DNA of 64,000 bases from Botryllus schlosseri. Its lineage: Eukaryota. The stretch lies in contig CM119371.1 in the NCBI GenBank assembly GCA_051294905.1, positions 32,366,001-32,430,000 of the forward strand, written 5' to 3'. Within the stretch, counting starts at the first letter, position 1, and each line of letters opens with the position of its first letter. Positions 25,732 through 51,323 of this stretch are shown here, in pieces. The notes beneath the pieces were generated by a model. It did not search any database. It worked only from the letters and a program-made list of their open reading frames with translations, and was not told the origin of the DNA. Made by a program: the position numbers and the translations under genes.

Positions 25732-25933
25732 TGTAGCGTACCGCTCCGTGATTAACCTATAATTACCCTCGCTGATCACTGATTATGTTGTACCCATGTC
25801 GGACGAGTCCCCGTCGGACGAGCATATCGTCATGTTTTAGTTGTTTTAATAAAAGAGCAATGCTGACTAGTCTACTTTGACTTATCGAGCCGCGGACCAA
25901 GAAGAACGCGCGCCCACGACAGAGCACGCTATA
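25732..25933 (+). repeat. Gypsy 5' LTR (202 bp)
   Basis: TGTAGCGT...ACGCTATA, contains AATAAA; matches the 3' LTR apart from an ~62-bp internal indel. Confidence 0.93.
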
Positions 25934-25936
25934 TTT

Positions 25937-25954
25937 TGGTGACCCCGACGTGAT
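25937..25954 (+). promoter_or_regulatory. Primer-binding site, tRNA-Trp
   Basis: TGGTGACCCCGACGTGAT, 3 nt after the LTR, is complementary to the eukaryotic tRNA-Trp 3' end. Confidence 0.88.
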
Positions 25955-26000
25955 TTCGCTAGCCATCCTAGCCGACGTGATTTCGCTATAGCCATCCTAG

Positions 26001-26880
26001 CCAATCTCCAGTCCAAGTATCAAGTAGATTCGTCAAGTAGTTTTCGAGTAGTGGCCGTGTAAAGTAGTAGTTTCAATGTAGTTTCAACGCCGTGAGTGCT
26101 ATCGAGTTCAATTTTGTATGGTTTAATACTCGTAGCAAGGCCAATCTCCAGTCCAAGTATCAAGTAGATTCGTCAAGTAGTTTTCGAGTGGTGGCCGTGT
26201 AAAGTAGTAGTTTCAATGTAGTTTCAACGTCGTGAGTGCTATCGAGTTCAATTTTGCAAGGTTTAATACTGGTAGCAAGGCCAATCTCCAGTCCAAGTAT
26301 CAAGTAGATTCGTCAAGTAGTTTTCGAGTGGTGGCCGTGTAAAGTAGTAGTTTCAATGTAGTTTCAACGTCGTGAGTGCTATCGAGTTCAATTTTGTATG
26401 GTTTAATACTCGTAGCAAGGCCAATCTCCAGTCCAAGTATCAAGTAGATTCGTCAAGTAGTTTTCGAGTGGTGGCCGTGTAAAGTAGTAGTTTCAATGTA
26501 GTTTCAACGTCGTGAGTGCTATCGAGTTCAATTTTGTATGGTTTAATACTCGTAGCAAGGCCTATCTCCAGTCCAAGTATCAAGTAGATTCGTCAAGTAG
26601 TTTTCGAGTGGTGGCCGTGTAAAGTAGTAGTTTCAATGTAGTTTCAACGTCGTGAGTGCTATCGAGTTCAATTTTGTATGGTTTAATACTCGTAGCAAGG
26701 CCAATCTCCAGTCCAAGTATCAAGTAGATTCGTCAAGTAGTTTTCGAGTGGTGGCCGTGTAAAGTAGTAGTTTCAATGTAGTTTCAACGTCGTGAGTGCT
26801 ATCGAATTCATTTTTGCATCGTTTAATACTCGTCGCAAGCCCAATCTTCAGTCCAAGTATCAAGTAATTTTGTCAAGTAA
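26001..26880 (+). repeat. 140-bp tandem array (6 near-identical units plus a partial one), continuing as degenerate related units at 26880-27251, 27852-28080 and 37535-38170
   Basis: The unit start CCAATCTCCAG (or a 1-nt variant) recurs at 26001, 26141, 26281, 26421, 26561, 26701, 26841. GTCCAAGTTTCAAG and GTGGCGCTAGAGAGTTGA motifs continue downstream. Confidence 0.95.
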
Positions 26881-27251
26881 CAAACATTTTATAGTAATTT
26901 TAATGTTTCGGGGATGCTTTTTGTCATGTTGTGGCGGCCCTAGAGAGATGATTTTCTCAACGAATAATACTGTCGGTAAGGCCTATAAACAGTCCAAGTT
27001 TCAAGTAGATTCGTCAAGCAACAAACATTTTATAGTATTATTAACGATTGCGAATGCTTTAAACCATGTTGTTGTGGCGCTAGAGAGTTGATTTTTTCAC
27101 AGATGGATACCGTAGGCAAGACCTATCATCAGTCCAAGTTTCAAGCATGTCCGTCAAGTAGAACAGAATATAGTTTTTTTGTGGCGCTAGAGAGTTGATA
27201 TTTTCATGCATGATTGTTCTTGGTGAGACAAATCATCACTCCAAGTTTCAA

Positions 27252-27851
27252 GAGAGAGAGAGAGAGAGAGTCTTTATTTTCATCGAACCAAAATACATAA
27301 CAAACGGCAGTGATGGTGGTACAGAAAATATGCGTGCACAGTATTCGGTATTAGATAGGAATGATCGATAAGACCGTGAAGGTCATCTAGTCTGATCACA
27401 CCAGCATCAAACAGGTACACTTGACTCAGAACAGTCTGGCTGTAAAAAAATGTTTAGTTAGGAAAGGAAAATTGAAAAAAATTAAACAATGGTAGCAAAT
27501 GATCAATGAAGCAATGTCTGGGCGAGGTAGGGCAACAGTGTTAGTGTAACGACAAGAGGTGATCAAGTAGGGCTTTTTTGAATCTATTATAAGGCAATTC
27601 ACGGATATGTGATGGTAATGCATTCCAGATGATAGGTCCCGAGTAGTCGATAGATCTCTTAGTTAGGTTGCTATTGGGTTGGGGTAAGTAGACGTTTCCT
27701 TTAGACGAAGATCTCGTGTAATGGGAATGGACATGTTTAGCAGGTATGAAAAAGTCATCAAACACAGGAGGGAGACTATTGGAAAAATATTTGTGAACAA
27801 CTTTTGATACTTCGAAGCGATACAGTTCATCAACTCGCAAAATTCGATGCT
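27252..27851 (-). mobile_element. 5'-truncated CR1/L2-like LINE 3' end with (TC)n tail
   Basis: ORF C-terminus HSHYTRS...RSIDYSGPIIWNALP...FKKAL, minus-strand AATAAA and (GA)n on the plus strand. The host CCAAGTTTCAA|GTGGATTCAAC is contiguous in the paralogue at ~37750. Confidence 0.85.
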
Positions 27852-28589
27852 GTGGATTCAACAAGTTTTGAAGGTGTTACAGCCATTTTTCGTTTTGACC
27901 ATGTTGTGGTGGGGCTAGAGAGTTGATTTTTTCAATTATGAATGCTCTCGGCATGACCTGTCTTCAGTTTAAATTTCAAGTGGATCGGACAAGTATTATA
28001 GAATCTAGGTTTCTGGTGGCGCTAGAGAGTTGATAATTTCATGGATGATTGCTCTCGGCAAGACCTATCATCAGTCCAAGCATAGTGTCCTATATGGTGT
28101 CGACACAAGCAAATCTCACGGTTCAATGAAATTGTATCACGTCACAATTTCCATTTGGCTACAGGCAATTTGACGGTTATTTTTGACCGGCTTGCCGAGC
28201 AATAAATTTGATGAATCGGGTATCAATCGAAAGCTAACTTTGCACTGATTACGAAAATATAAATTTTATTCCACTCATGGCCCTGGAACCCCCACAATCA
28301 GCCCCAAATTATTCATTGTTGAGTAGATTGGCAGTGTGACGCAACAATGCTGTCTGGCTAAACGAGAGAGAAACTCAAGAGGAAGGATGCGGCCGAGCGG
28401 TGAGAGTGGCATCAGCTGACGTCGCGGCAACAGCTATGTGCATTGTGCAATTATAGATAACTAACCTAGCTATACTTAGACGGAAGGATCTCTATAAGTT
28501 GAAGGATATTGCAGGAAAATTCGTAGGTCCCAAATACATTCTATGGACCCAGTTCTACCTTTAGAAATCAAGGAAAGGCTGGTAATGTG

Positions 28590-29046
28590 TGAAGTCGCGA
28601 TTTCAGACTTCAAGAGCCATAAACATCACGGTTCAATAAACCTTGTATGACCTTTGTGACGTAACTGTTATATAGTTCACTGCCGTTCAGTTTCGCCCTC
28701 GTTGCCTGCTTTGTATCAGTTGCTAATATTTCGACTATCAATCTTATTCAATCGTATTTACCTCGCAATTTTTATAGATCCTAAAATAATTATTATGAAT
28801 AGTCTGATTCGAAATTTGTAACTGTCCTCAAGGAAACACCGTCAAGTAAGTATATATTGATTTATCCGGTACTAAACAATTTGTGTTAATTCGCTGTGTA
28901 TTAATGCTTTCAGAAAACCGTTTTTCGTCTGTGTAAAATAAAATCCAACGAAGCAGGCAGAAACGCGTCATCTTGGGGTGTTGGATAGGACAGTTATATC
29001 TCTATTGTGTATACGTGGAAGATTCCACCCCTCTTTCGCGGTTACA
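28590..29046 (+). repeat. BEL 5' LTR
   Basis: TGAAGTCGCG...CGCGGTTACA; appears identical to the 3' LTR by eye. Confidence 0.95.
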
Positions 29047-29113
29047 TAAAGTTTTTTGACGGATCCATTCAACAAGTGCACCAATCAGCAAAGAAAACTC
29101 AGCTGTCAATGTC

Positions 29114-32100
29114 ATGGATTCCAACAACCAAACAAAAGATCCTGATCTGGATGTTACACAGAGATGCGAAGAAGACAACAAAGTCACCAAAACAAAAGAC
29201 AAACCAAAGTCTTCAAGGTCTCATGGTGCCAGATCAAAATCATCAGTTCAAACGAGATCCATGTCAAAGGCTTTAGAGCACAAATACTTGAAAGCAAAAA
29301 GTTCAAGCAAATCAAGTTCAAGTCATCGGTCATCAACAGGTACCGGTACTTCTACATCAAATCATTCAACTAAATCTCGCTATAGTGGAATGAACGTCGA
29401 AAATGTCGTAAATTATCATCAAAAACTGCAAGAAATATGCTCTGCACGAGCAAAACAGGATATTGAAGATATTCAGGCTTCATTGAACACTGAAATACAA
29501 TCAATTCAAAATCAAACTGCTTTGGCCCGAGCCAATCTACAAGAACAAAAAAAGAAGTTAGCAGAAGATCTACGAAAGAAACTAGACGAAGAAAAGAGGA
29601 AGTTGGAGGAAGAACAAAGGAAGTTGGAGGAAGAAGAACAAGAACTACAAAGACAACAAAATCAACAATGTGAAATGATTAAACAAAGGATGCAGCAAAA
29701 TGCTGACGAAACAGCTCGCCGTGTAAGACGAGAACATTTGCAAAATACATGTGAACTAGAACTAGAACTCACTAGACGTGGTGTATCAACGCAAAGTTCA
29801 CCTCAACTGACAGCGGAAGAACTGCAGCCATCTGAAAACAGGAGCCTGGCTCCTCAAGTAAGCAATGTTCCAGAACAACTACAGCAAGCAAGTGCTGCTA
29901 TTCAACCTACGAACAATGTAATAACTTCAACTGCTGAAGCGTCTACAAATGTCACTCCACTGATATCTTCAAATACTTCATATGCAGGTGTGGCTATTCC
30001 TTTTAATAGCTTGTCTCACAGCTCTCGCCAAATGTCTAATGTTGTAGGCCTAAGTGAGAATGTATGTGTGCGTGAAAGATCTAACAGTAATTGTGTGACT
30101 GCTCGTTTGGACGCATGCATTGCACCCAAAAATCAATCGCCTGTAATTGATGCCGAAAATAGTCGCCTTGTTGTAGCACCTCCCATGATTGATACACAAA
30201 TAACTACTAATTTGCCTAGTTCTTTTGCATCTGGTAGCGTACAACCCTTTGTGCCAGCTAATTCAAATCAAGCAGCTACAGCAGGCTGCACAGTTCAAAA
30301 TACTGCAAACTCTGATCTCAATGTAAAGCCTAACCAACCGCCTAACTTGATTCAATGTGAGAATCCGTATGTCATTCACCAGGTTAAACCCAGTGATCAA
30401 ATTGTCTCATTCAAGTTGGAACCAAAATGTTTTAGTGGCGACCCAATTGAATTTGATACATTCAAGGAAATGATAAATGCTACTTTGAATCGTCAACCAT
30501 GGTCGCAAAAGCAGAAGTTGATGCATCTTTTGCAATATACCCGTGGTATTGCCAATACTTTTGTTAAAGCTTGTGAAGATATGGAAAACTGCTTTGATGA
30601 AGCTCTTGCGGTATTGAAAGACAATTTTGGCCAACCGTTCCAAATAAGTGACCGCTACATAAACACTGTTATAAATGGCTCGAAACTTGTAGAAGGTGAC
30701 AACGATTCTCTGCTGTTATTTCACGCATCGTTAACTGCTTGTACCAATAAGTTGACCAAATTTGAAAGAATTCGTGATGTTTCACGCTCTATGGTTGAAC
30801 AAATTGCCGAGAGACTTCCCCCTTCCTGGCAGCCTGGTTGGAGAACCTTAGTGGCGGAGGTCACTTTTGACCTGAAAACCGAACTGACTGTTGAACATGT
30901 AAATAACTATGTTCGTCAGAAAATTAGAGAAATCACTAGTAAATATAACAACCCTAATCATGAAATATCCAAGAAGCAAGTTACGGGTGTATTCAAAGCT
31001 GGCAAGCCAAAGGCATCATTCAGCACACAAGTTGTGACTCCAACATTGGAACTTTGCTTCATGTGCAACGAAAAGCATTTCTTGAATCAATGTACCCAGT
31101 TCCGCAAAATGCAGTATCCTGATCGCATTGAATTCGCCAAAACCAAAGGGCTCTGCTTCAAGTGTCTAAAGTCGGGACACTTCGGAAAAGCATGCAAACG
31201 CATTCAAGCTTGTATAAGGCCTGGTTGCAAAGGCAATCATACAACACTTCTTCACCCACCTGAAGAAAAGATAAAAGAGGTTGCTAACAAAACCTTGGAT
31301 TCGGCAAATGAACAAATTGAAGGCCAAGGCAAAATTTCTGATTCAAAAGAAGCTACCTCTTTCTTCAGTGCTTCCTGCGATGACAATGAATATGATGATG
31401 ATGAATGTGTGACTTTGAATGTAGTTCTGGCAAGACTACGGATCGTTGGCACTGACAAGTACATCGTCACCTTGGCATTGATTGATAATGCAAGCAATTG
31501 TTCATTCATATCTGAAGAACTGGTGAAACTACTCGGTCTCGCTGGGCCCGAGCGAAACGTAACTTTCCAAACAATCGAACCATCTAAAAATACCAAGAGG
31601 TCAACCATTGTTCGTGGTTTAGAGATTTCTGATTACGAGGGATCAGAATACGTACCTCTGAAGTCACTGATATCTACAGAAAAAATCGCTCTGGACAACG
31701 ACCTTCGGCCAACACAAAGTGATGTACATCAATTTCAACAATTTGAAGACATTCCAATCCCAGATCTTTCTGGAGACATCGGTCTGCTGATTGGTAAAAA
31801 CAACCCCAAAATTCATAAGCCTCTGGAAACTATATATGGACCTGAGGATTACTTCGCAGTGAAAAGTGCCATCGGATGGATGTTTACATGCCCAAAACAA
31901 TCCGAACCTTTCAAACCTCACTCCTATTTCATTCAAACCAATCCAAACCCTTTGTGCAGGATGTGTCACGATGATGTCAATTCCATAGCAAATGACAAAA
32001 CTGAACTCTCTGTAAATGATAAACTATTTATGGAAAAGGTGTCATCGACAATCCTACTTGACTCGAACGGGCACTACCAAATGGAATTACCATTGAAACA

Positions 32101-35100
32101 TCCGGATTTAACACTGCCCGACAACAAACATCAAGCAAAACAAAGAATCAATTATCTGCAGAAAAGATTCCAAAAGGATCCAAAGTTCTTCGATGAATAC
32201 AAAGTTTTCATGTCTGACATGATCACAAATGGATATGCCGAGAAGGTTCACAATGATGGGCCAGTTGGTAAAACCTGGTACCTGAGCCATCACGGTGTGT
32301 ATCACCCTGAAAAGAAGACTATCCGCGTTGTTTTCGATGCATCTGCGAAATTCAATAACCTGGCGTTGAACGACCTTCTGTTACAGGGGCCAGACCTAAC
32401 AAACAACCTTGTTGGTGTTTTATCGCGCTTTCGCAGAAATGAAGTTGCGATCCAAGGTGACATTCGATCAATGTTCCACCAGGTTAAGGTTGATGAATCT
32501 GATAGAGACCTGTTACGCTTCCTGTGGTGGAAGGATAATGACCCAAACCAACAACTTGAAACGTACCGCATGACTGTGTTTTTATTTGGGACTGTGAGCA
32601 GCCCTAGCTGTGCCAACTTTGCTCTACGAACTGTCGCTGAAGACAACAAAAATGCCTATGACATTGATGTCATAAATGCGGTTCAAAAGAACTTCTACGT
32701 TGATGATTTTCTTGATTCCTGTGAGGATACTCCTGCTGCAATTCGTCGTGTGGAAGATGTCAGCTCTCTGCTAAGCAAAGGTGGATTTGAACTGACAAAA
32801 TGGGCAAGCAATTGCAGAGAAGTACTGGCAGCAATACCGGAATCAAACAGAGCCAAAAACCTGAAAAATATTGACTTGTTAACTGATGAGCTACCGATGG
32901 AGAAGACATTGGGGCTTGCCTGGAATATAGAAGATGATTCTTGGTGCTTCCGCGTCAAAGAAAAACACAAACCCTGTACCAGAAGAGGAATTCTGAGTAT
33001 CGTGAACTCAATTTTTGATCCGCTGGGAATGGCTCAAACTATAGTGCAACCAATGAAGGTATTGATGCAGCACTTACGCAAAAATAACTACAATTGGGAT
33101 GACCCGTTACCTGAAGAAGCCACGAAGATTTGGTACGACTGGTTATCTCAACTACAGAAGCTTGAAAACTTTACGATTCCAAGATGTTTCAAACCGTCAA
33201 AGTTTGGACAGGTGACAAGAATCGAACTTCACCACTTCTCAGATGCCTCCGAGTTGTGCTATGGTGCAGTATCTTATCTGAGATATCTGAATGATGCAGG
33301 TGAGATTCACTGTTCTTTTGTTTGTGGAAAAACAAGACTCGCCCCCATCAAAGGTTCTACCATTCCGAGAATGGAGTTGTGCGCTGCAACAATATCTGCC
33401 AGTAATAACAAATTTCTGCTAAAAGAGCTGGACCTGCCTATTGACGATTCATACTTCTGGACTGACAGCACAACTGTTTTGCGATATCTCACAAACAAAG
33501 ACAAAGCTTTCAAAACCTTTGTTGCGAACAGAATCAATATGATCAAAGAGTCTTCAGAATTATCGAACTGGAGGTATGTACCTTCAAAACAAAACCCTGC
33601 TGATATTGCTTCTCGGGGCCAGACTGTTTCTGAATTCTTGACTTGCGACATGTGGAAATTCGGTCCAGAATTCTTGTGGAAAGATTCTTCGGAGTGGCCT
33701 CAACAACCAACATTTCTAGAGGAGTTGTCTGGTGATGACCCAGAAATCAAAAAGCCAAACAAATTGTGTTTTCTTACAATTACCACTCCAAGTTCTGTTC
33801 TTGATGAACTCATCTCCAAGATCTCAAGCTGGACTCGACTGAAAAGGGTGCTGGCATGGGTTTTGCGCTTCAAAAGTAATCTTCTTGCCAAAGTGAGAAA
33901 CAAACAACCAAATGCAAAGCTGACAAACGAGGCATTGACTTTAACCGAAGTTAAAGCTGCCGAAGAAATGCTTATACGTCATGAGCAAACAAAGCACTTC
34001 TCTGAAGAAATAGAAAGACTGAAGACTGATGAACAAATCAAAAGATCTAGCCCGATCTACAAATTGCTGCCATTTCTGGATAATGGGACCCTCCGGGTTG
34101 GAGGCAGAAATCAAAATGCTCCTATTGGTTACGACTCAAAACATCCGATAATCATCCCAAAAAAGAGTCCAATTGCAGAATTGGTCATTCGAGATGCTCA
34201 TATTTCATGTGGCCACAGTGGCCGGGAATATGTTATTGCCCAAGTCAGAGAAAGATTTTGGGTTGTCACAATCAATTCCAAAGTACGATCCGTTCTGAAA
34301 AATTGTGTCTCATGTAGGAAACGTCAACGAAAACCAGAATCTCAACAAATGTCTGATCTACCATCTGATAGATTAACTCCGAATGACCCGCCGTTCCACG
34401 CAGCTGCGGTTGACTGTTTTGGTCCGTTTTTGGTAAAACGTGGTAGATCTGAGTTAAAACGATATGGCGTTTTGTTCACTTGCCTAACCACTCGCGCTGT
34501 CCATATTGAAATTGCGAATAGTTTGGACACTGATTCTTTCATTATGGCACTGCGTCGCTGCATTGCACGCCGTGGACAAATCAGTTTGATACGGTCAGAT
34601 AATGGCAGCAACTTCACATCAGGTGAGAAGGAGTTGAGACAAAACATTTTAACTTGGAATCAAACAAAAATACAAGATTTTTTGGTGCAAAAACAAATAA
34701 CTTGGTTGTTTCAGACCCCTTGTGCATCCAATCATGGTGGTGTATTTGAAAGACAAATTCGAACAGTGCGAAAGATTTTGGGTGCTTTGTGTGATGAACA
34801 AATGTTGTCTGATGAATCTCTATTAACATTGATGTGCGAATGTGAATCAATTATGAATAATCGCCCAATTTCAACTGTGTCTAGTGATCCACATGATTTG
34901 ACCCCAATAACCCCTAACAGTCTGTTGTTGTTGAAAGATAAACCCATGCTACCACCTGGTGTGTTCAATGTCAAAGATGTTTACTCTCGAAAAAGATGGA
35001 GACAAGTCCAGTACTTGGCTGATCTTTTTTGGACAAGGTGGAAGAAACAATACCTTCCACTACTTCAGATTCGCCAAAAATGGAATGAAAAGAAAAGAAA

Positions 35101-35293
35101 TATCACTGTAGGTGATGTTGTGCTTGTGTTGGATCAAAACCTACCTCGTAACATGTGGTTGCTAGAACGTGTGATTGAGACCCTACCTGACAAGTCTGGG
35201 TTGGTGAGAAGCGCGAGAGTGTTTACCAAAACGAATATTTTGAAACGACCCATAAACAAATTGGTGCTTCTCTGTGAAGCTCGTGACTGTTGA
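29114..35293 (+). CDS. BEL/Pao Gag-Pol polyprotein (coiled coil, Gag, 3 zinc knuckles, protease, RT, RNase H, integrase)
   Basis: 2059 aa. CFMCNEKHFLNQC, CFKCLKSGHFGKAC, CIRPGCKGNHTTLLH; ALIDNASNCSF; NFYVDD; HHFSDASELCYG; H..GH/CVSC; VDCFGP, SDNGSNF, GGVFER; BEL-type C-terminus. Confidence 0.97.
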   Translation: MDSNNQTKDPDLDVTQRCEEDNKVTKTKDKPKSSRSHGARSKSSVQTRSMSKALEHKYLKAKSSSKSSSSHRSSTGTGTSTSNHSTKSRYSGMNVENVVNYHQKLQEICSARAKQDIEDIQASLNTEIQSIQNQTALARANLQEQKKKLAEDLRKKLDEEKRKLEEEQRKLEEEEQELQRQQNQQCEMIKQRMQQNADETARRVRREHLQNTCELELELTRRGVSTQSSPQLTAEELQPSENRSLAPQVSNVPEQLQQASAAIQPTNNVITSTAEASTNVTPLISSNTSYAGVAIPFNSLSHSSRQMSNVVGLSENVCVRERSNSNCVTARLDACIAPKNQSPVIDAENSRLVVAPPMIDTQITTNLPSSFASGSVQPFVPANSNQAATAGCTVQNTANSDLNVKPNQPPNLIQCENPYVIHQVKPSDQIVSFKLEPKCFSGDPIEFDTFKEMINATLNRQPWSQKQKLMHLLQYTRGIANTFVKACEDMENCFDEALAVLKDNFGQPFQISDRYINTVINGSKLVEGDNDSLLLFHASLTACTNKLTKFERIRDVSRSMVEQIAERLPPSWQPGWRTLVAEVTFDLKTELTVEHVNNYVRQKIREITSKYNNPNHEISKKQVTGVFKAGKPKASFSTQVVTPTLELCFMCNEKHFLNQCTQFRKMQYPDRIEFAKTKGLCFKCLKSGHFGKACKRIQACIRPGCKGNHTTLLHPPEEKIKEVANKTLDSANEQIEGQGKISDSKEATSFFSASCDDNEYDDDECVTLNVVLARLRIVGTDKYIVTLALIDNASNCSFISEELVKLLGLAGPERNVTFQTIEPSKNTKRSTIVRGLEISDYEGSEYVPLKSLISTEKIALDNDLRPTQSDVHQFQQFEDIPIPDLSGDIGLLIGKNNPKIHKPLETIYGPEDYFAVKSAIGWMFTCPKQSEPFKPHSYFIQTNPNPLCRMCHDDVNSIANDKTELSVNDKLFMEKVSSTILLDSNGHYQMELPLKHPDLTLPDNKHQAKQRINYLQKRFQKDPKFFDEYKVFMSDMITNGYAEKVHNDGPVGKTWYLSHHGVYHPEKKTIRVVFDASAKFNNLALNDLLLQGPDLTNNLVGVLSRFRRNEVAIQGDIRSMFHQVKVDESDRDLLRFLWWKDNDPNQQLETYRMTVFLFGTVSSPSCANFALRTVAEDNKNAYDIDVINAVQKNFYVDDFLDSCEDTPAAIRRVEDVSSLLSKGGFELTKWASNCREVLAAIPESNRAKNLKNIDLLTDELPMEKTLGLAWNIEDDSWCFRVKEKHKPCTRRGILSIVNSIFDPLGMAQTIVQPMKVLMQHLRKNNYNWDDPLPEEATKIWYDWLSQLQKLENFTIPRCFKPSKFGQVTRIELHHFSDASELCYGAVSYLRYLNDAGEIHCSFVCGKTRLAPIKGSTIPRMELCAATISASNNKFLLKELDLPIDDSYFWTDSTTVLRYLTNKDKAFKTFVANRINMIKESSELSNWRYVPSKQNPADIASRGQTVSEFLTCDMWKFGPEFLWKDSSEWPQQPTFLEELSGDDPEIKKPNKLCFLTITTPSSVLDELISKISSWTRLKRVLAWVLRFKSNLLAKVRNKQPNAKLTNEALTLTEVKAAEEMLIRHEQTKHFSEEIERLKTDEQIKRSSPIYKLLPFLDNGTLRVGGRNQNAPIGYDSKHPIIIPKKSPIAELVIRDAHISCGHSGREYVIAQVRERFWVVTINSKVRSVLKNCVSCRKRQRKPESQQMSDLPSDRLTPNDPPFHAAAVDCFGPFLVKRGRSELKRYGVLFTCLTTRAVHIEIANSLDTDSFIMALRRCIARRGQISLIRSDNGSNFTSGEKELRQNILTWNQTKIQDFLVQKQITWLFQTPCASNHGGVFERQIRTVRKILGALCDEQMLSDESLLTLMCECESIMNNRPISTVSSDPHDLTPITPNSLLLLKDKPMLPPGVFNVKDVYSRKRWRQVQYLADLFWTRWKKQYLPLLQIRQKWNEKKRNITVGDVVLVLDQNLPRNMWLLERVIETLPDKSGLVRSARVFTKTNILKRPINKLVLLCEARDC

Positions 35294-35425
35294 GAGCTGA
35301 AACTTGTTACAGTTTTTTGAGTATTGTAACCTTTCGTTTCTTTGTGTTTTTATTGTGAATTTGCAGTTGTGTAAAAATTGCCAAACTTGCATAAATTCAA
35401 ATTTTCAATTTTTAAAGGGCCAGGA

Positions 35426-35882
35426 TGAAGTCGCGATTTCAGACTTCAAGAGCCATAAACATCACGGTTCAATAAACCTTGTATGACCTTTGTGACGTAA
35501 CTGTTATATAGTTCACTGCCGTTCAGTTTCGCCCTCGTTGCCTGCTTTGTATCAGTTGCTAATATTTCGACTATCAATCTTATTCAATCGTATTTACCTC
35601 GCAATTTTTATAGATCCTAAAATAATTATTATGAATAGTCTGATTCGAAATTTGTAACTGTCCTCAAGGAAACACCGTCAAGTAAGTATATATTGATTTA
35701 TCCGGTACTAAACAATTTGTGTTAATTCGCTGTGTATTAATGCTTTCAGAAAACCGTTTTTCGTCTGTGTAAAATAAAATCCAACGAAGCAGGCAGAAAC
35801 GCGTCATCTTGGGGTGTTGGATAGGACAGTTATATCTCTATTGTGTATACGTGGAAGATTCCACCCCTCTTTCGCGGTTACA
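35426..35882 (+). repeat. BEL 3' LTR
   Basis: Same 457-bp sequence as 28590-29046. Confidence 0.95.
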
Positions 35883-37160
35883 ATGTGTGCTCGCTTTCAG
35901 CGAAGCGCCTATAGAAAGTATCAACATCGCCACGCATCTCTGGAGCCCTACGCAACAAGCGGGCTGAGGTAATCGATATCATAATAATCTGACATATCCA
36001 ATGTAGACTACTTAGACGTAGCCTACATATCTCTATCAGCTGAAGGATATTGCGCGAAAATTGGTAGGGACCAAATACATTCTGTGGACCCAGTTCTACC
36101 TTTACAAATCAAGGAAAGGCTGGTAATGTGTGCTCGCTTTTAGCGAAGCGCCTATAGAATGTATCAACAGCGCCACGCATCTCTGGAGCCCTACGCAACA
36201 AGCGGGCTAAGGTAATCGATATCATAATAATCTGACATATCCAATGTAGACTACTTAGACGTAGCCTACTTATCTCTATCAGCTGAAGGATATTGCGCGA
36301 AAATTGGTAGGGACCAAATACATTCTGTGGACCCAGTTCTACCCTTACAGATCAAGGAAAGGCTGGTAATGTGTGCTCGCTTTTCGCGAAGCGCCTATAG
36401 AAAGTATCAACAGCGCCACGCATCTCTGGAGCCCTACGCAACAAGCGGGCTAAGGTAATCGATATCATAATAATCTGACATATCCAATGTAGACTACTTA
36501 GACGTAGCCTACATATCTCTATCAGCTGAAGGATATTGCGCCAAAATTGGTAGGGACCAAATACATTCTGTGGACCCAGTTCTACCTTTACAAATGAAGG
36601 AAAGGCTGGTAATGTGTGCTCGCTTTTAGCGAAGCGCCTATGGAAAGTATCAACAGCGACACGCTTCTCTGGAGCCCTACGCAACAAGCGGGCTAAGGTA
36701 ATCGATATCATAATTCATAATAATCTGACATATCCAATGTAGACTACTTAGACGTAGCCTACATATCTCTATCAGCTGAAGGATATTGCGCGAAAATTGG
36801 TAGGGACTAAATACATTCTGTGGACCCAGTTCTACCCTTACAAATCATAGAAAGGCTGGTAATGTGTGCTCGCTTTTAGCCAAGCGCCTATAGAAAGTAT
36901 CAACAGCGCCACGCGTCTCTGGAGCCCTACGCAACTAGCGGGCTAAGGCAATCGATATCATAATAATGTGACATATCCAATGTAGACAATTTAGACGTAG
37001 CCTAAATATCTCTATCAGTTGAAGGATAATGCGCGAAAATTGGTAGGGCCCTAATACATTCTGTGGACCCAGTTCTACCCTTAAAAGTCAAGGAAAGGCT
37101 GATAAGGCGTGCTCGCTTGTACCGAAGCAAATAGAAAAGTATCAACAGCGCAGCGTTTCT
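35883..37160 (+). repeat. ~243-bp tandem repeat inside the P-like element (first unit split by BEL, starting ~28500)
   Basis: AAGGAAAGGCTG-type anchor recurs at 36111, 36354, 36597, 36847, 37090. Confidence 0.92.
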
Positions 37161-38393
37161 CTGCGACGCGATTGCACATAGCTATTGCCGCGACGTCAGC
37201 TGATCCCACTCTCGCCGCTCGGCCGCATCCTTCGTCTTGAGTTTCTCTCTCGTTTAGCCAGACAGCATTGTTGCGTCACACTGCCAATCTACTCAACAAT
37301 GAATAATTTGGGGCTGATTGTGGGGGTTCCAGGGCCATGAGTGGAATAAAATTTATATTTTCGTAATCAGTGCAGAGTCAGCTTTCGATTGATACCCGAT
37401 TCATCAAATTTATTGCCCGGCAAGCCGGTCAAAGATAACCGTCAAATTGCCTGTAGCCAAATGGAAATTGTGACGTGATACAATTTCATTGAACCGTGAC
37501 ATTTGCTTGTGTCGACACCATATAGGACACTATGGTCCAAGTTTCAAGCATGTCCGTCAAGTAGAACAGAATCTAGGTTTCTGGTGGCGCTAGAGAGTTG
37601 ATATTTTCATGGATGATTGCTCTCGGCAAGACCAATCATCAGTCCAAGTTTCAAGCATGTCCGTCAAGTAGAACAGAATCTAGGTTTCTGGTGGCGCTAG
37701 AGAATTGATATTTTCATGGATGATTGCTCTTGGTAAGATAAATCATCACTCCAAGTTTAAAGTGGATTCAACAAGTTTTGAAGGTGTTACAGCCATTTTT
37801 CGTTTTGACCAGGTTGTGGTGGCGCTAGAGAGTTGATTTTGCATGGATGAATGCTTATGGCAAGGCCAATTACCAGTCCAAATTTCAAGTATATTCGTCA
37901 ACTAACAAAAATCTTACAGTATTTTTAATGTCTTACGAGGCTATTTAAGCATGTTCTGGTTGCGCTAGAGACTTGATTTTTATTTTTCTGGAAAGGGCGG
38001 GAAAAGCCGAATAATCCATGTGAATTTCAAGTCAATCGGACCACAAAATCTAAATTTTTTCTGGACCCCTAATTTCTGAAAAACCATGTTGTGGTGGCGC
38101 CAGAGAGTTAATTTTTTTTTCTGGAAAGAGCTCGGAAAGGCGATTAATCTATGTAAATTTCAAGTAAATCGGCCAACGTTTACTATTTTTCCAAGTACGA
38201 AATGTGTTCGAAATAAAAAAACCCGAACGTTTTCTGTTATTTCTCCTTCAGTTTTCACACTATCGTCTCGGGGAAGGTGGCGTTCGAAAGATGTCTGTAA
38301 GAAAAATCCAGACGTTTTGGAATTATCTCGATAGCTATCACGGCCTTCAAATGACAGCTATTTGAAAATGACAGTTTTTCAGGAAAATTCGAT

Positions 38394-38475
38394 TGACGTC
38401 ATCGTTCCGGTGGGCGGTCACGGCGCGCCAATTCAGAAAGTATATAAACCGGAGTTTCGAGCGGCGGAGCTCATT
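38394..38475 (+). promoter_or_regulatory. Compact RNA Pol II promoter: CRE, GC box, CCAAT, TATA, Inr
   Basis: TGACGTCA 38394-38401, GGGCGG 38412-38417, CCAAT 38428-38432, TATATAAA 38441-38448, and an Inr-like TCATT with its A at 38473, 32 nt after the TATA start. Confidence 0.75.
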
Positions 38476-38546
38476 ACGCGTTAATTGGTTGTATTAAGGT
38501 AAGCATCGGCCGTGCGTCAGGTGTCTTTTAGAAATATTTTTTGCAG
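38473..38546 (+). ncRNA. Spliced-leader (SL) RNA-like gene: 26-nt leader, GT donor, Sm-like site
   Basis: ATTACGCGTTAATTGGTTGTATTAAG|GTAAG. The first ATT and last 14 nt match the Halocynthia-type ascidian SL as I recall it (ATTGGAGTATTTGGTTGTATTAAG; verify). ATTTTTTG at 38536-38543 fits an AU4-6G Sm site. 3' end uncertain. Confidence 0.65.
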
Positions 38547-40774
38547 ATAAACAAAGAAAACTGGTATCGCTGGGATACATTGACTTATCATAAATATTTA
38601 ATCTACGTCTGCGCTGTGCAGTTAGATTTAACAGTCGTACCGTCGTACCTAGACTTTAGTGCCGTACACGTGGTTGCCGTACAGACTTACCTCGCCTTAC
38701 ACGCTTTTGCCGTAAACAGATTCCCAACGTACACGCAGTTGTCGTTGTTCTTTAAAACCTACAAACAGCGCAATACATATACGGTAGCCTCAAGTTAAAC
38801 AGATTTACCTGCAGTCCAGGGCTGTCTTGCCTGCAGTCTTCACAAACATACGGCTCGCGCTGTATTGTCTGCAGTTTCGACACACATACACGGATCGCGC
38901 AACTTAGGCTGCTTTGCCTGCATCTCTGACATACACACAGCTGCTTCGCTGTCGCGCCTGTTCTTCCAAACAACATTGCCTGTAGTTCTAATAATCACAC
39001 GGTTTCTTTGTGGCCTTACCTGCAGATCAGAAAGACACCACCGGCATATCAGCATACGCGCAGCTGCCTTGCTTGAAGATTCGGGTTTTAAAAGAGCGAG
39101 GTTGCCTTGATCTGAACTGAAAGATAGGCCTGTCCTTGCACAATCACGCAGTTTCGGATTCAACCAAGAAATAGAAAACTTCACCTTCCTTTCAGTAGTG
39201 AATTCCACAGCCTTGCGGTCGCGCGGCGTCTTGACTTGCTGAACAGTCTTGTAAAAGGTTGTTGTGGCTGTGCGTCCCTTTTGCACAGCAGCAAGCAGGA
39301 ACTACCTGAAATACAAAATACAAAGATTACCTACATATTAGGATTAAAACTAACTGACATCCAAGAAAACTGAGCTGTAAAGACAACAGACAGCTACATA
39401 GGCTTAGAAAACGCCGATACTTAGGTTAGAGTATTGGAAGAATTGGACAACTTGGCAGTAGAGATTTTGACAAGGCGGCATAATACAACGAATAAATAGA
39501 AGCTTGTAAATAACCTACGAGCGTAATTCAGCTTGTGGAGACAAATAAATACCGAATTAAATAGAAATATCGCTACAAATTCCAGGCTGCGGACAGAAGA
39601 TCCGCGCTTAGATAGACAATCGGACGGAACAAAAGGACACCTTTGTCTCCCGATTTTTGATTTGTCTAGAGGCATTGTTGATATAACTAGCCACAGAGCG
39701 GTCAGAGGCTACAAGAATGAAAGGGAGAACTAGATCAATTGACTTAATCTTCAGTGAAGAAATAGAACTGAAACAAGCAATTGAACTGGTAACAGAAAAT
39801 GAACTACTAACAGAAAATGAACTACTAAAAGAAAATGTTGTACAACTGGAAGGCCTCTTCCAAAACGGCATACGTGCATACAACATAACTTATGAAACAG
39901 AGGAAACAAAAACAAGAGGTAATGAAAAAAACAAAAAGAATAATCAAAACGGAAGATTATACAGTGTGGCTGTATAAACCCAGAAATCAAAAATACACAA
40001 TAAACATTAGGGCAGTCCCTACAGAGATTGAAAACAGTGAAATAAAAGAACTATTATCGGCCTTAAACTGTGGAAAAGTTGGTACAGTTGAAAAAGTGCA
40101 TCATAAAGGCACGATGATATACAACGGCTTCAGGCTGCAGCAAACCGCTGCAGCAAAAAGTTGGAAGGACACTTGTAGGGAAAACAACCTCATAGATGTC
40201 TTCAGAACCAGACACCACATGAAAAAACTTTACACCATTAAAAAATTCCACCAAGAGAGAAGGATAGACAGGGTGTACTGCTCCAAAGAGATACAACAAG
40301 AAATACAAGGATTTGAATATAAAATTAATTTGATGTCAGACCACTTATACATGGGAATCTTGACAATTAGGAAACCTGAATCAAGCAAATGGGGTCCAGG
40401 AATATGTAAAAATGATGTTGAATTATACAAGAATAAAGCGGTTAGGTCTGAGATAACACAAATATACGAGTTATATGCAGAGCAGAAAAAAATGAACAGT
40501 CACATCACTGAGTGGTGGGACGGAATAAAAACAGTTATAAAGAACGTATTAATAAGGAACGGGAAAGAACTAAGTAAGGAAAGGAAAAAAAGAATGAGAA
40601 TTCTAACAACCAAGATAAATAACGTAGAAAGGAATTCGGCAGAATTTCACGAATTAATTTCGGAACTAGGAGATCTAGAGAAAGAAGACTTCAAAAAATC
40701 ATTAATACAAGCAGGTATTGATGATAGGGAGATAAACGAAAAACCGAGTAAAGAAGTCGTTGAAAGATTGAGAG

Positions 40775-41502
40775 CCAAGATAGAGAAACAAAACATAGCA
40801 CAATTAGTAGATGATGATCAGAACTTGCTAACCAATGAAAACGAAATAATGGGAGAAGTAACGAACTTCTACCAAAATCTATGGGGTAGAAAACCAACAA
40901 CAGATAGACACAAACAATGCCAACTTGTGGAAGAAGTAAAGGACGTGGAAATAACACCAAGATAGAGAAACAAAACATAACACAATTAGTAGATGATGAT
41001 CAGAACTTGCTAACCAATGAAAACGAAATAATGGGAGAAGTAACGAACTTCTACCAAAATCTATGGGGTAGAAAACCAACAACAGATAGACACAAACAAT
41101 GCCAACTTGTGGAAGAAGTAAAGGACGTGGAAATAACACCAAGATAGAGAAACAAAACATAACACAATTAGTAGATGATGATCAGAACTTGCTAACCAAT
41201 GAAAACGAAATAATGGGAGAAGTAACGAACTTCTACCAAAATCTATGGGGTAGAAAACCAACAACAGATAGACACAAACAATGCCAACTTGTGGAAGAAG
41301 TAAAGGACGTGGAAATAACACCAAGATAGAGAAACAAAACATAACACAATTAGTAGATGATGATCAGAACTTGCTAACCAATGAAAACGAAATAATGGGA
41401 GAAGTAACGCACTTCTACCAAAATCTATGGGGTAGAAAACCAACAACAGATAGACACAAGCAATGCCAACTTGTGGAAGAAGTAAAGGACGTGGAAATAA
41501 CA
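40775..41502 (+). repeat. Four tandem copies of a 182-bp ORF2 segment
   Basis: CCAAGATAGAGAAACAAAAC at about 40775, 40957, 41139, 41321; each extra copy shifts the frame. Confidence 0.93.
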
Positions 41503-42112
41503 CAAGAACAAATGGATATCCTTAACGGTCCCATTTCTGAAGATGAAACAAAGGAGGCTATCGATAAAATGCAGAGTGGGAAATCGCCGGGCAGCGATGG
41601 ACTATCTGCTGAATTTTATAAAGCCTTCTGGAAATTGATTAAGACTGAATTGACAGAAGTCATGAACAATGCCTTTTTGTTTAATCAACTATGTGAATCC
41701 TGGACGAAGGGCATAGTTAAAATGATTTACAAAAAAGGAGATAGCAAAGAACTTAGAAACTATCGTCCGTTGACCCTGCTCAACACGGACTATAAGATTC
41801 TATCTAAAATAATTAACAGAAGACTGTCAGAGATCATGCCTAACATTTACAAAAGCCAAAAATGCAGCGTGAACCAACGCTACATTCATGACGCCACGTT
41901 GAACATTAAAGCAGCCATCGATTACACCAAGTATAAAAAGAAGCCTTTATTCATAGCCAGTTTTGACCAAGAGAAGGCTTTCGATATGGTAAATCATGAA
42001 TATTTGATGAAATTGAATCTTGGAACAAAATTCCACAGATACATTGAAACGACGTATAAAAAAGCAACCAGCAATGTAGTGGCAAATGGGAAGATATCGC
42101 AGACAATTAAAA

Positions 42113-42829
42113 TAGGGTTACCATATTTTTGTAATCCAAATTCCGGACGCTCCTCAGCGCCCACTAGCGGATTTCAAAATGCGGTGTTATATTGTGGATC
42201 AATATGACGTCACACCAGCGAAGCTTTGTCTATCGACTAGAGGTGGTCAAGATCCGGTTCAGGAGTATGTGGTTGTGTGTTGTGGGTTATAACCAGGGCC
42301 GAAGCCACATTTTTCAGCCCCACCATGGCCTTAGTAGGCCATGGCCCCACCCCGTCCATCGTAATCGATGCAAGTTCTGGGGCTTACTATATGCATCTGG
42401 TCGTTAAATGATTTGAATGAAGTATGTCAATAATATTGGTTCTTCCATGTATTACTATATAATTTGATCCTCACTCCGCCCACATGATCAGAGTTTGCGG
42501 TAGAGCTGGTGGAGGATGATGAATTCGAAAATGCGAGGAGCGTAATGGTACTTCGTCAAGTCATGTCCAAACGGCCTAAACCGACTCTATGAAGATACCG
42601 TTAGACTCATTTCTGTGTTATTTTTATTTATTTTTGATCACATTTTTGCGAGGGTGGTAGTCCCGATATTAAGACCAATATATGTGACACTAAATTGATT
42701 TAGGAAAAAATTATGAGCTTACTTCTAAATTCCGGACATTTAGGCATATTTTAGAAATTCCTCCCGGATACAGATTTAACAGTGAAATTCCGGACATGTC
42801 CGGGAAATTCCGGACGTATGGCAACCCTA
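42113..42829. mobile_element. hAT (Blackjack-like) MITE inserted in the LINE RT
   Basis: TIRs TAGGGTTACCATA / TATGGCAACCCTA, 8-bp TSD AATTAAAA (42105-42112, 42830-42837), TCCGGAC subterminal repeats. Removal restores ...QTIKIKRGIRQGCPMS. Confidence 0.93.
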
Positions 42830-45800
42830 AATTAAAATCAAAAGAGGAATAAGGCAGGGCTGCCCAATGAGTATGTCACTGTACGCCATTGCGGCAGACC
42901 CTTTGATAAGAAAAATAATAAAAGACGAAAAGATCAAAGGTGTTTCGATAGGCAACCAGGGCGAAATGAAAATGCAGCAGTACGCTGATGACCTGACAGC
43001 AACAGTAACGGACGAGGAATCTATAATAAAAGTCCTGCAACATCTGCAGGACTTTGAAAGAGCCACGGGCCAGAAAGTCAACAAATCCTTGCGACAAACA
43101 AGGAGGCGAAGAAAAGGAGGAGAAACCCAGAGATTAACGAGTTCTACCACGAACAAATTAAGGTACTGGACTCCTAGGAGAGAAGAACGTAGAGGAGATG
43201 TGGATGAGAAAAATAGCCAAAGTGGATGAGAAAGATAGTCAAAGTTAAAAACATACTTAACTTATGCAAAGGAAGAGACCTTACCTGGATTGGTAAAGAG
43301 AACGTGCTTAACAGCTTGGCAACCTCGCAGATTTTGTATGTGGCGCGAGTGTATCCACCTGGAAAACAACATACAAAAGCACTTAACAAACTGTTCTTTG
43401 AGTTTCTTTACCACCCAGAAAAGATGGAGACGATATCCAGGATTAAACTAGCCTCAAGTAAAGAGAAGGGAGGCATGGCAATTCCATTCCCAATATGGAA
43501 AGCCACTACTAGCGACATAATGAAGATGAGAGACCTAGCTAACATTGACACACCAGAAGAATTTTGGCAAAAACACGCATTATATCAATTAGGAACCAAA
43601 ATCAACCAAATTAATCCGGAACTGTACACCAACAGCACCCCGCACAAAAATGTACCAAATAAAGATTGGGCCGCAACCTTGAAAAAATACAAAAATTTGA
43701 AGTGGGGAAGAGAACAGCTTCAAGAAGCTAACTTCAAAACAATATACACTACATTAACAGACATGCATGGGAAAAAGGAAGACACGATCTCAAACACCAA
43801 CGAAGAAAAGATTATAAACTACAGAATAGCACAAGACGGCTATAACTTTGGATCGAACAAAAAAAGACGTGGAATGCTAAAAATAATGAAAGGGAAAATG
43901 GAAAAACATAAATGCAAATACTGCAAAATAAACGAAGAAACGGTAGACCACGTGTTTACCGAGTGCACAGTGACGTTAGCGGTGTTGAGAGGAGTGGAGA
44001 GAATCCTGGACTTGTCACCTGCAAAAACAGACATGATATTAATGAACAAGCTAAATTCAGATGGATTGATACTTACAATGATATCAATTTACAAAAGAAC
44101 GGTGCTGACACACAAACAATACCTCGACATTGAAATTATGAACTTGGAGGAAGAAAAGAAATGGAGAAGAGACGCAATCAAGAAAATCCTGGGGAAACTG
44201 TTGCAGAGATTCAAGCTGCACGAAAATACCCAGAAGAACAAAGAAATAAAGAAATGGACGGAAAAAATATCTATTTTCATGTCCGAAGAAGAATAAAGAA
44301 TTGGACAGGAAATGTGAATGCCTTCCTGTCCAAAATGAACAAAAACGGACGGGAAAAGACAACATACCGTCGTCTCGTCAGGTGAGGAATGACGAAATGA
44401 TGGGATGATGGAAAAGAAGAGGAAAATGGAAAGATGCGCGGCGATTTCATGTATTTCATGTTAGTTTGTGCCGCGCGCGGTAATTAATTTGCATTTTTTG
44501 TATTGAAATTATATGAATGTAATAAATACTCGGCGGTTAGCCAAAAGAAAGAAAAAAAAAAGAGCTAGATACAAGTTAGACAGGTCGCTGGTTATGGCGA
44601 AAGACAGGTGCTGCAGAGTGGCCGGCGTCCTCCAGGGGGACTTGCCCCCTGAGTCTGGCTGGGGCAATATTTTCGCGCGGACGGTTTTTTCGCTTGTGCG
44701 CGGCTTTCATTGAAAACGCGTCAGGGGGGTGGGGGGTATTCGCGCGGTGCGTTTTTGCGCATCGCGCGGCTGGTTTTTTCGGTTGTGCGCGGCTTTCATT
44801 GAAAACGCGCCAGCGGGGTGGGTCGTAGCGCGGCGTTGGGTGGGACCCTCTGGGACCTGCCCACGTGTCCGGGACGCACCAGACCCAGCGGGTAAACGGC
44901 AGGAGTAATTTTTTAGCACGACATCGTCGTGAGGCCCGTGTGTCGCACCGGTGGTCGACCCGTGATTTGGACGCCCAATAATGTATCGCAGCCGCAACCG
45001 GCCCAGCCTGCAGCTGCGGTCCGTGTTCGTGAAGGGATGGCCGCAAGGCCGCGTCGCACGATCCGGGCTCCGGTCCGAATGGACTTGTAGTTTCAAGAAC
45101 TGTGGTTTAAAGTTTCGTTCGTGCTTGAATTATAGCTGTGACATCAAATTTTTACGCATTGTACCACCTTTTTTAGTTATATTAAGTTAATTTAACTGTT
45201 TTCTTTTGGCCACCTTTGCTAGTATCGTGTTTTATTGCTTAATGTGTCGTTCTTATTTTTTGTTGGCCACTTGTGTCTAGTCTTTGTCTTATTTTATGTT
45301 ATTATTATCACATTTTATCGCTTTTATCCCTCGCTTAAACTGTGCATTGCATTTCTTTTAATCGCTTGTTTATTTTTCAGATCATATTATCATAGCGTTA
45401 GTGTAAACGTGTTCTAAAACACTAGTTAACCACTGCAATGCGTCTAGAACAGAATGGGGCAGAAAGAGGTCGGTGTCAGCTGGTCGGAACAGTGCGATGG
45501 TGTTAAGCCGGGGTTGGAGGGAGGACGACTCTTCGTGAGAGAAGAAGTACTGTGTAACAGTACGTAAACTTTAGTGAGCATTGCGTTGTTCGATCACGCC
45601 GTGCTTTCTAAAGCTTTATTTACTGTTACATACTATCACAATACTAATATAAAATAGTTGTGTAGAAAGTGTTTGTGCTTGCGAGGTCATGATACAGTGT
45701 CTTGCCTGTCTTGCATGTGCTGTTCTGAGTTGTACGTGCAAGGTTTGGCAAAACACTGTTTCGTGACAGTGCATGGTTTCGTTGTAGGGAAACTAGCTGG

Positions 45801-46240
45801 TATGTGTCACTATGTACACTTCAAAGTGCATCAACCTGTTACCCAGGTTCATGTTCCGTGAAGTCAACATAGTGTTACAAAACATCGTAATAATCGTCGG
45901 ACATAATCGAATTAAAGATGCGCAAGTTCTTGCGTAAGACCGTGTAGTGGCGTTGTTGCTGTTCTGCATATTTAATCCGCGAATCATGTACATCATTCAC
46001 GTTCCATTTGTGCCTTTCAAGTTCATATATTACCACCCGTCTTCTTTGCTTGAACAACATTTTGGCTTGCAGTTTTATTGTGCAATTCGTGTCATGTATC
46101 GAATTTTTTTCGCGTTTGTCAGGAAGTTGCGTTTCAATTCTCTTTACGTTCGTTTTTAATGACATTCATGTTGCTGTGTTGAATGGTGCTTTCAATTGAC
46201 ACTTGTATTTGTCTACAGATACTCTAGCTATATCATTATA

Positions 46241-51312: not shown

Positions 51313-51323
51313 AGGGGGGCCCT
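51313..51323 (+). promoter_or_regulatory. Gypsy polypurine tract
   Basis: AGGGGGG run shortly before the 3' LTR. Confidence 0.6.

What the first reader, a model, noticed from the sequence alone, without database searches (positions are those of the whole stretch)
26001..44561. Repeat array, promoter/SL unit, LINE and poly(A) appear to have entered the Gypsy leader as one ~7 kb unit
Seen: this block sits between the Gypsy PBS region and the remaining Gypsy leader. Removing later inserts (CR1 piece, P-like element with BEL, hAT MITE, extra 182-bp copies) leaves about 7 kb running 140-bp array, degenerate repeats, promoter, SL-like unit, LINE, A-tail. A LINE transcript begun at 38473 could not carry its own upstream promoter. 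Inference: the copied RNA began further upstream (read-through from a neighbouring unit of a tandem SL array, or a promoter within the repeats), or the block moved by DNA recombination. This would disperse SL genes and regenerate the promoter. I found no TSD; a ~27-29-bp duplication of the PBS-adjacent sequence (25945-26000) lies at the left junction.
Basis: partly seen in the sequence, partly recalled or inferred. Interest (0 to 1): 0.7.

Follow-up and report, generated by a model that had tools for sequence, protein, structure and literature searches.

The report
LINE with built-in spliced-leader mimic
A jumping gene (LINE) nested inside another one in a sea-squirt-type genome starts with its own promoter and an altered copy of the short leader that sea squirts splice onto messenger RNAs, probably behind a row of repeats that travels with it, but how and in how many pieces it arrived is not settled.

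Summary
The anatomy is real. Removing four later inserts from 26001-44561 leaves about 7.2 kb: repeat array, TATA promoter, SL-like exon, 48-nt GT-AG segment, leader, dead APE-type LINE, A-tail, 45 nt behind a Gypsy primer site. No flush TSD encloses it.

The SL-like exon, leader and LINE are one transcription unit: 38369-39716 has no ATG (16.6 expected in 38473-39711), and a short repeat runs through the best internal TSD candidate.

The unit is not an ordinary SL RNA gene. Two metagenome SL loci have a 24-nt exon, lie in an SL-U2 repeat and lack TATA; this exon has 26 nt, a changed 5' half and TATA at -32.

That array and promoter came with the LINE is likelier than not (about 0.5) but unproven. 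A 5-bp GAGCT repeat flanks exon start and tail, and the empty Gypsy site was not seen.

Best reading: a LINE headed by promoter-side monomers, like mouse L1, with a cis-encoded leader mimic. Dispersal of working SL genes is unsupported. The scan noted SL-headed LINEs elsewhere in this genome; my look-ups found no note of an array-plus-promoter head on other DNA.

The parts
25732..25933 (+). Gypsy 5' LTR (host element), inserted in a CR1-type 3' UTR, TSD CGTG
25937..25954 (+). Primer binding site, tRNA-Trp type
   Evidence: the same 18-mer is the PBS of 8 avian retrovirus records; tRNA identity recalled
25945..26000 (+). Tandem 27+29-bp duplication that begins inside the PBS; left junction of the block
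26001..26840 (+). Six uniform 140-bp units, 96-100% identical to unit 2; the array starts abruptly here
26841..38280 (+). About 11 degenerate units (107-141 bp) of the same family in three pieces (26841-27252, 27853-28080, 37535-38280), most diverged next to the promoter
27253..27852 (-). Later insert: high-copy LINE 3' piece with a TC-repeat tail, no TSD (clade not tested)
28081..37534 (.). Later insert: non-coding TIR element (362-bp TIR, 7-bp TSD) with an internal 243-bp array
28590..35882 (+). Later insert: BEL/Pao LTR element, identical LTRs, open 2077-aa ORF
38394..38472 (+). Pol II promoter-like motifs: TGACGTCA 38394, GGGCGG 38412, CCAAT 38428, TATATAAA 38441
   Evidence: function inferred
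38473..38498 (+). 26-nt SL-like exon; last 14 nt identical to the published chordate SL consensus, 5' half altered
38499..38546 (+). 48-nt segment from GTAAG to T-run+CAG: candidate cis-intron, also holding an Sm-like A(T)6G run and a weak hairpin
   Evidence: splicing not shown
38547..39716 (+). ATG-free leader with short degenerate repeats (about 38620-39117)
39717..44296 (+). Dead APE-type LINE: ORF1 start fused near 40135 to the last part of the endonuclease, then RT and zf-RVT; broken by a deletion, frameshifts, 182-bp x4 and a MITE, with no in-frame stop in four ORF2 blocks
42113..42829 (.). Later insert: MITE with 8-bp TSD
44521..44561 (+). AATAAA (44521) and A-rich tail 44543-44561; right junction
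44562..47020 (+). Presumed Gypsy leader: GC-rich 44562-45100, T-rich stretch, 145-codon ORF of unknown kind (46241-46678), AG acceptors just before this ORF and before gag
   Evidence: membership in the Gypsy inferred from position between the LTRs
47021..51587 (+). Gypsy gag (PF23055-type relatives; frame break near 47160), open pol 47683-50988, 3' LTR 51324-51587

Best explanation
The 7.2-kb block is one copy of a low-copy L1/Tx1-type LINE whose full head is: 140-bp monomer array, TATA promoter, SL-like exon, 48-nt GT-AG segment, 1.17-kb ATG-free leader. Shown: the exon, leader and ORF1 form one selected 5' UTR, and the 3' end is a polyadenylated RNA end. Inferred: the TATA promoter makes the translated mRNA, which after cis-removal of the 48 nt would look like a trans-spliced host mRNA. 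Also inferred: a longer unspliced RNA started in or above the array was the template for this copy, which was cut short inside the uniform monomers, so the promoter is carried along as in mouse L1. It landed 45 nt behind the Gypsy PBS without a TSD, either by target-primed insertion with an altered target or by template switching during Gypsy reverse transcription; the duplication that starts inside the PBS fits the second. Four other elements or duplications came later.
For: No ATG in 38473-39711 against 16.6 expected; the gap 38368-39717 is the longest of the window, 1349 nt against 454 on that strand and 816 on the other. The leader's short repeat motif recurs at 39101, 38 nt after the previous copy; 8 of 5000 simulations reach its score. 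TATA at -32 from the exon start. About 17 units in phase, uniform at the left cut and most diverged at the promoter. In run X2 the summed depth of the degenerate units (44), the array end (26-58) and a family contig on the leader (49) are alike, lower than ORF2 (114-138) and lower than the Gypsy leader (138-195), which is the gradient expected from 5' truncation (depth is no copy number). Mouse L1 promoters of tandem monomers with 5' truncation inside a monomer are described in PMC6454616 (passages).
Against: The empty site was not seen. GAGCT lies both just before the exon and just after the tail (about 0.6% by chance). In run X8 the array end (17-20) is deeper than the exon-leader bins (3-3.5) and ORF2 (about 5), as if arrays also occur without this LINE. 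The strand skew of the array (AT skew -0.06 to -0.18) resembles the post-tail region (-0.15 to -0.24), not the LINE ORFs (+0.38). The array holds many ATGs, so the long RNA would not be the translated one, which conflicts with the usual cis-preference of LINEs (established knowledge). RNA depth over the exon bin was 0.11 and no 48-nt joint was among those shown, so neither start nor splicing is shown.
Confidence: 0.5

Rival explanations
1. Two steps. An SL-headed LINE (38472-44561) inserted with a 5-bp TSD GAGCT exactly at the start site of a TATA promoter. That promoter and the array belong to the Gypsy leader or to another element, and the LINE borrows it, possibly as a preferred target.
For: GAGCT at 38467-38471 and 44562-44566. 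Tx1-clade elements often prefer other repeats as targets and may be transcribed from flanks (PMC4494074 sections 17-18 and passages). In X8 the array is deeper than the LINE; skew of the array resembles the post-tail region. Earlier notes report SL-headed LINEs in this genome (unchecked).
Against: The duplication is short, does not begin in the A-tail and leaves one extra base. It needs an insertion within a few bases of a start site. The sequence after the tail has an ATG after 28 nt opening only 39 codons and normal ATG density. In X2 the Gypsy leader is about three times deeper than the array.
Confidence: 0.24
2. The array is a separate dispersed repeat (for example the central array of a rolling-circle element or a small satellite) next to which the promoter-LINE sat, and the block moved or was rearranged at DNA level.
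For: The left junction cuts uniform units and has a local duplication. HINE elements carry short arrays and leave no TSD (PMC7492417 passages). Three independent inserts lie in the block and none was detected in the similar length of Gypsy sequence behind it.
Against: The right end coincides with a poly(A) end. No subTIR, palindrome or 4-nt microsatellite was found at the array ends. ORF2 blocks have no in-frame stop despite 3-4% distance from family contigs, so the LINE need not be older than the Gypsy.
Confidence: 0.12
3. One reading: the unit is a working SL RNA gene of the host, and the LINE RNA was read through from a neighbouring unit of a tandem SL array, dispersing SL genes.
For: 19 identical nt across the splice donor and a hairpin at the same place as in a real SL gene; an Sm-like run; earlier notes say elements here target the SL donor (unchecked).
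Against: Real SL loci L004 and L006 have a 24-nt exon, no TATA, a U2 neighbour and no 140-bp repeats. The window's hairpin is no more stable than shuffles (511 of 1000). The donor is followed by a strong acceptor and an ATG-free mRNA-type leader. No rest of an SL repeat follows the tail.
Confidence: 0.07
4. The LINE begins at 39098 with an 8-bp TSD at an L1-type TT|AAAA site, and array, promoter and SL-like exon are an internal promoter unit of the Gypsy leader.
For: TTAAAAGAGC at 39088 matches the tail end; 19 of 3000 simulations give it, and it is the only such site in the window. Internal promoters are known in tunicate Tor LTR elements (PMC4402516 passages). The exon bin is deeper than the next bin in X1 and X2.
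Against: The short repeat continues across the site. Both halves are ATG-free while the post-tail region is not. A second 8-nt match at 38125 shows such matches arise by chance (16% of simulations).
Confidence: 0.07

Closest known systems
Mouse L1Md elements with monomer promoters (PMC6454616, abstract and passages read; PMC9022269, listing only)
   Same: L1-group LINE preceded by a tandem array of variable number; 5' end inside the array; duplication of units can keep the promoter through truncation.
   Different: Here a separate TATA promoter and an SL-like exon lie between array and leader; promoter activity of the 140-bp units is untested; the units are not GC-rich.
SINEU and Tx1-Mar of crocodilians (Kojima 2015, PMC4494074; abstract, sections 17-18, passages)
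   Same: Retroelements headed by a Pol II small-RNA sequence, Tx1 machinery, insertion into another transposon, TSD often absent, transcription possibly from upstream.
   Different: SINEU heads are U1/U2 pieces on short non-coding elements with no promoter found; here the head is an altered SL exon with donor, acceptor and TATA promoter on a coding LINE.
SL-gene-targeting NeSL (PMC4640811, passages) and CRE/SLACS elements (recalled)
   Same: A non-LTR element directly behind an SL exon.
   Different: Those encode a restriction-like endonuclease and sit inside real SL genes with the rest of the gene behind them; this one is APE-type and no SL remainder follows the tail.
LTR-mediated retroposition by template switching (Tan et al. 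2016, PMC5131818, passages)
   Same: Foreign RNA-derived sequence between two LTRs, no TSD, short junction similarity.
   Different: There the captured RNA replaces part of the ORFs and is a spliced mRNA; here pol is open, the insert lies at the PBS and keeps a GT-AG segment and a promoter.
Stolidobranch-type SL RNA gene (consensus in PMC3795323 Table 1 passage; loci L004, L006)
   Same: Last 14 exon bases plus GTAAG identical; two hairpins can be drawn at the same places.
   Different: 26 against 24 nt, different 5' half, TATA promoter, downstream acceptor, no U2 neighbour.

Membership tests
SL RNA gene (stolidobranch type) | Exon equal to the leader on host mRNAs | tested here: inconclusive
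   3' 14 nt match the published consensus, 5' half does not; the leader of this species was not read from RNA here; earlier notes give 24 nt
SL RNA gene (stolidobranch type) | GT donor after the exon | tested here: met
   AAG|GTAAG at 38496-38503
SL RNA gene (stolidobranch type) | Stable hairpin after the donor and an Sm site | tested here: inconclusive
   Hairpin -5.1 kcal/mol, 511 of 1000 shuffles as good, against -8.3 in L004; the A(T)6G run doubles as an acceptor tract
SL RNA gene (stolidobranch type) | TATA-less snRNA-type upstream region in a tandem repeat with another small-RNA gene, as in L004/L006 | tested here: not met
   TATA at -32 here, none in 2 of 2 loci; promoter similarity not significant, 20 of 200 shuffles; no Rfam match in the window
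SL RNA gene (stolidobranch type) | Short capped RNA used in trans-splicing | not testable with these tools
   RNA depth 0.11 in the one RNA run laid
L1 group, APE-type LINE (Tx1-like) | APE, RT and C-terminal zinc finger in ORF2, poly(A) end | tested here: met
   RVT_1 and zf-RVT; 9 of 10 selected relatives align from 40165-40261 at residues 162-193 and the tenth from 40117; AATAAA and tail
L1 group, APE-type LINE (Tx1-like) | Placement in the Tx1 clade by RT phylogeny | not tested
L1 group, APE-type LINE (Tx1-like) | TSD around the insertion | tested here: inconclusive
   None around the whole block; candidates at 38467 (5 bp) and 39090 (8 bp)
Monomer-promoter LINE (mouse L1 type) | Tandem array 5' of the leader, cut inside the array | tested here: met
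   (one copy only)
Monomer-promoter LINE (mouse L1 type) | Array linked to the LINE across copies | tested here: inconclusive
   Depth agrees in X2, disagrees in X8
Monomer-promoter LINE (mouse L1 type) | Transcription starts in the monomers | not testable with these tools
   No RNA reads in bin 26367-27033 of the one RNA run
NeSL/CRE SL-targeting elements | Restriction-like endonuclease; rest of the SL gene downstream | tested here: not met
   APE-type relatives; post-tail region against the L004 unit not significant, 15 of 100 shuffles
HINE/Helentron with central repeats | subTIR, inverted repeat, microsatellite and 3' palindrome around the array | tested here: not met
   No inverted repeat in 25930-26150 and none convincing in 37860-38620; no microsatellite there; the left end may be lost
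LTR-mediated capture | Short similarity at both junctions with the intact element | not testable with these tools
   Needs the empty allele; a 7-nt match between 25998 and 44538 exists but precedes the tail

The most novel reading that the evidence does not exclude
A LINE family in an SL trans-splicing animal builds its own spliced-leader mimic in cis (TATA promoter, altered SL exon, 48-nt intron, ATG-free leader), so its mRNA looks trans-spliced without losing its 5' end, and it keeps this upstream promoter by copying a second, longer unspliced RNA that starts in a monomer array; one such RNA was captured by a Gypsy at its primer site.
Probability: 0.28. Interest if true: 0.72.

Novelty: new variant of a known kind. 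Interest (0 to 1): 0.48.

Why it matters
LINEs need a promoter inside their own RNA, and SL trans-splicing removes RNA 5' ends. How LINEs persist in animals that trans-splice is therefore an open question. This copy shows a candidate solution that can be tested directly: a cis-encoded leader mimic with its own promoter behind a monomer array. If instead the LINE borrowed a promoter at a start site, it is a new target for Tx1-type elements. The claim that working SL genes are being spread is not supported, which lowers the interest.

Tried and rejected
No whole genome is held, so copies could not be compared.

The one read-laying run (29) was dominated by high-copy inserts: 15 of 434 joints and 24 of 4444 loose ends were shown, none joining the PBS side to the post-tail side, and 44539-44571 was skipped.

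Pattern scans found nothing for the PBS-side junction in metagenome contigs, the SL donor in viral contigs or the variant exon in prokaryote genomes. Gypsy pol found no locus in viral contigs. The PBS scan there gave 8 avian retrovirus records, useless for leader comparison. Of 6 metagenome matches to the published SL, 2 are SL genes (L004, L006); the other 4 lack the 5' end or the GTAAG donor and were set aside.

The 145-codon ORF has no relative among 17 candidates of similar length and no Atlas hit; ORF1 remnants gave no meaningful Pfam or relative match. Look-ups of earlier findings by sequence or relatives gave nothing relevant.

Rejected: the 39090 boundary; a promoter motif shared with L004 (20 of 200 shuffles); the idea that the LINE is much older than the Gypsy (no stop in four ORF2 blocks; one fifth block in that call was read in a wrong frame and ignored).

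Paper searches listed no description of such an element; the library lacks most subscription journals and Repbase, and no supplement was read.
Full report
Observation. The block lies between the LTRs of a Gypsy element (25732-25933, 51324-51587; TSD CGTG; 2 substitutions outside a repeat indel). The PBS is at 25937-25954, followed by a 27+29-bp tandem duplication that starts inside it. A 140-bp array follows (6.3 copies, 97%) and continues in phase as degenerate 107-141-bp units across the later inserts to about 38280, some 17 units in all. The inserts are a reverse LINE piece, a TIR element with a BEL inside, a MITE and three extra 182-bp copies. Removing them leaves 7232 bp. A MITE-free joint stands in two DNA runs and 4 RNA reads. 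Four X1 contigs match host parts of the block without substitutions, one across promoter, exon and donor; X1 may be the assembled sample.

The SL-like unit. The exon 38473-38498 ends in the same 14 bases as the chordate SL consensus in Table 1 of PMC3795323 (passage); one such match in the window has a chance expectation of 0.05. That points to a stolidobranch-type sea squirt (inference; earlier notes agree). A scan of metagenome contigs gave 6 matches to the published leader, 2 of them real SL genes: 24-nt exon, GTAAG, an 8-bp hairpin, a U2 gene in the same 1330-bp repeat, no TATA. The window's unit shares 19 nt across the donor but has a 26-nt exon with another 5' half, TATA at -32 with CCAAT, GC and CRE-like boxes, a hairpin no better than shuffles and a T-run plus CAG 48 nt after the donor. 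These loci may belong to another species, so the comparison lowers but does not exclude a second SL gene.

One transcription unit from exon to tail. There is no ATG between 38368 and the ORF1 start at 39717; 16.6 are expected in 38473-39711, and the next longest gap on that strand is 454 nt. I considered an internal boundary at 39090, where an 8-bp match to the tail end sits at a TT|AAAA site (19 of 3000 simulations). A profile of the leader's short repeat, built from seven copies upstream of that site after I had noticed the likeness, scores its best downstream match at 39101, one period on (8 of 5000). With both halves ATG-free, I take the 8-bp match as probable chance. The LINE is APE-type with RT and zf-RVT. 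It is dead: ORF1 is fused near 40135 to the end of the endonuclease, and there are frameshifts, duplications and the MITE, but no in-frame stop in four ORF2 blocks. Tx1 membership was not tested.

Did array and promoter come with it? For: the units grade into the promoter with no junction; the left end cuts the most uniform units; in X2 summed depth is 26-58 at the array end, 44 over the degenerate units, 49 for a family contig on the leader, 114-138 on ORF2 and 138-195 on the Gypsy leader. Against: GAGCT stands just before the exon and just after the tail; in X8 the array end (17-20) is deeper than the leader (3-3.5) and ORF2 (about 5); the array's skew resembles the post-tail region. The tool warns that depth is no copy number, and two samples are few. 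The decisive empty site was not seen: 15 of 434 joints were shown and the tail was skipped. I put the one-unit LINE reading at 0.5 and the two-step reading at 0.24.

Mechanism. The right junction is an AATAAA plus A-tail, so the route was most likely RNA (inference). On the best reading a longer RNA from the array, still holding the 48-nt segment, was copied and cut inside the monomers, as described for mouse L1 (PMC6454616, passages). The short mRNA would, if spliced, mimic a trans-spliced message. Neither start nor splicing is shown: the one RNA run gave depth 0.11 there. Entry was either target-primed without TSD, which occurs in Tx1-driven elements (PMC4494074, passages), or a template switch during Gypsy reverse transcription (PMC5131818, passages); the duplication inside the PBS fits the latter, but the empty allele is needed.

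Comparison and novelty. Each ingredient has a precedent: monomer promoters, snRNA-headed retroelements (PMC4494074), SL-adjacent NeSL (PMC4640811, passages), internal promoters in tunicate Tor elements (PMC4402516, passages), arrays in HINEs (PMC7492417, passages). PMC7986045 was read in passages for SL background. NeSL and HINE membership failed here. Searches listed no LINE with a promoter-bearing SL mimic; Repbase and supplements were not seen. Earlier scan notes describe SL-headed LINEs and SINEs on other DNA of this genome (unchecked); they gave me the Kojima 2015 lead and rival 1. Verdict: real, a new variant of known kinds, one-unit entry unproven, SL-gene dispersal unsupported; interest 0.48.

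Noticed in passing
L004:129-815 and L006 (minus strand): A stolidobranch-type SL RNA gene and a U2 snRNA gene lie in one tandem unit of about 1330 bp; no TATA upstream of the SL gene.
   Followed up: partly
window 44562-47020: The Gypsy has 2.45 kb before gag with a GC-rich part, a T-rich part and a 145-codon ORF without relatives; AG acceptors lie 22 nt before its ATG and 9 nt before the gag ATG, with no strong donor nearby, as expected for trans-splice acceptors.
   Followed up: partly
window 44537-44547: The last LINE bases and first tail bases equal 11 nt of the antisense of the U2 5' region seen in L004; probably chance, not tested.
   Followed up: no
window 17187-19870 and 24953-25468: A 411-bp inverted repeat (95%) with internal 41-bp tandem arrays of very unequal length brackets about 8.3 kb that holds exon-like pieces; possibly a foldback or Pack-type element.
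   Followed up: no
window 25806-25933: Part of the Gypsy LTR is far deeper in all runs than the internal region, and a shorter related LTR joins the same PBS (joint 25747>25934): many solo LTRs or related small elements.
   Followed up: no
window 29047-29070: The BEL element shows no TGG-type primer site directly behind its 5' LTR.
   Followed up: no
window 14264-15910: Open 548-aa pogo/Tigger-type transposase ORF (HTH_psq, DDE_1).
   Followed up: no
window 57062-57651: A 590-bp near-perfect palindrome that shares a 75-bp stretch with the TIR of the element at 28081.
   Followed up: no
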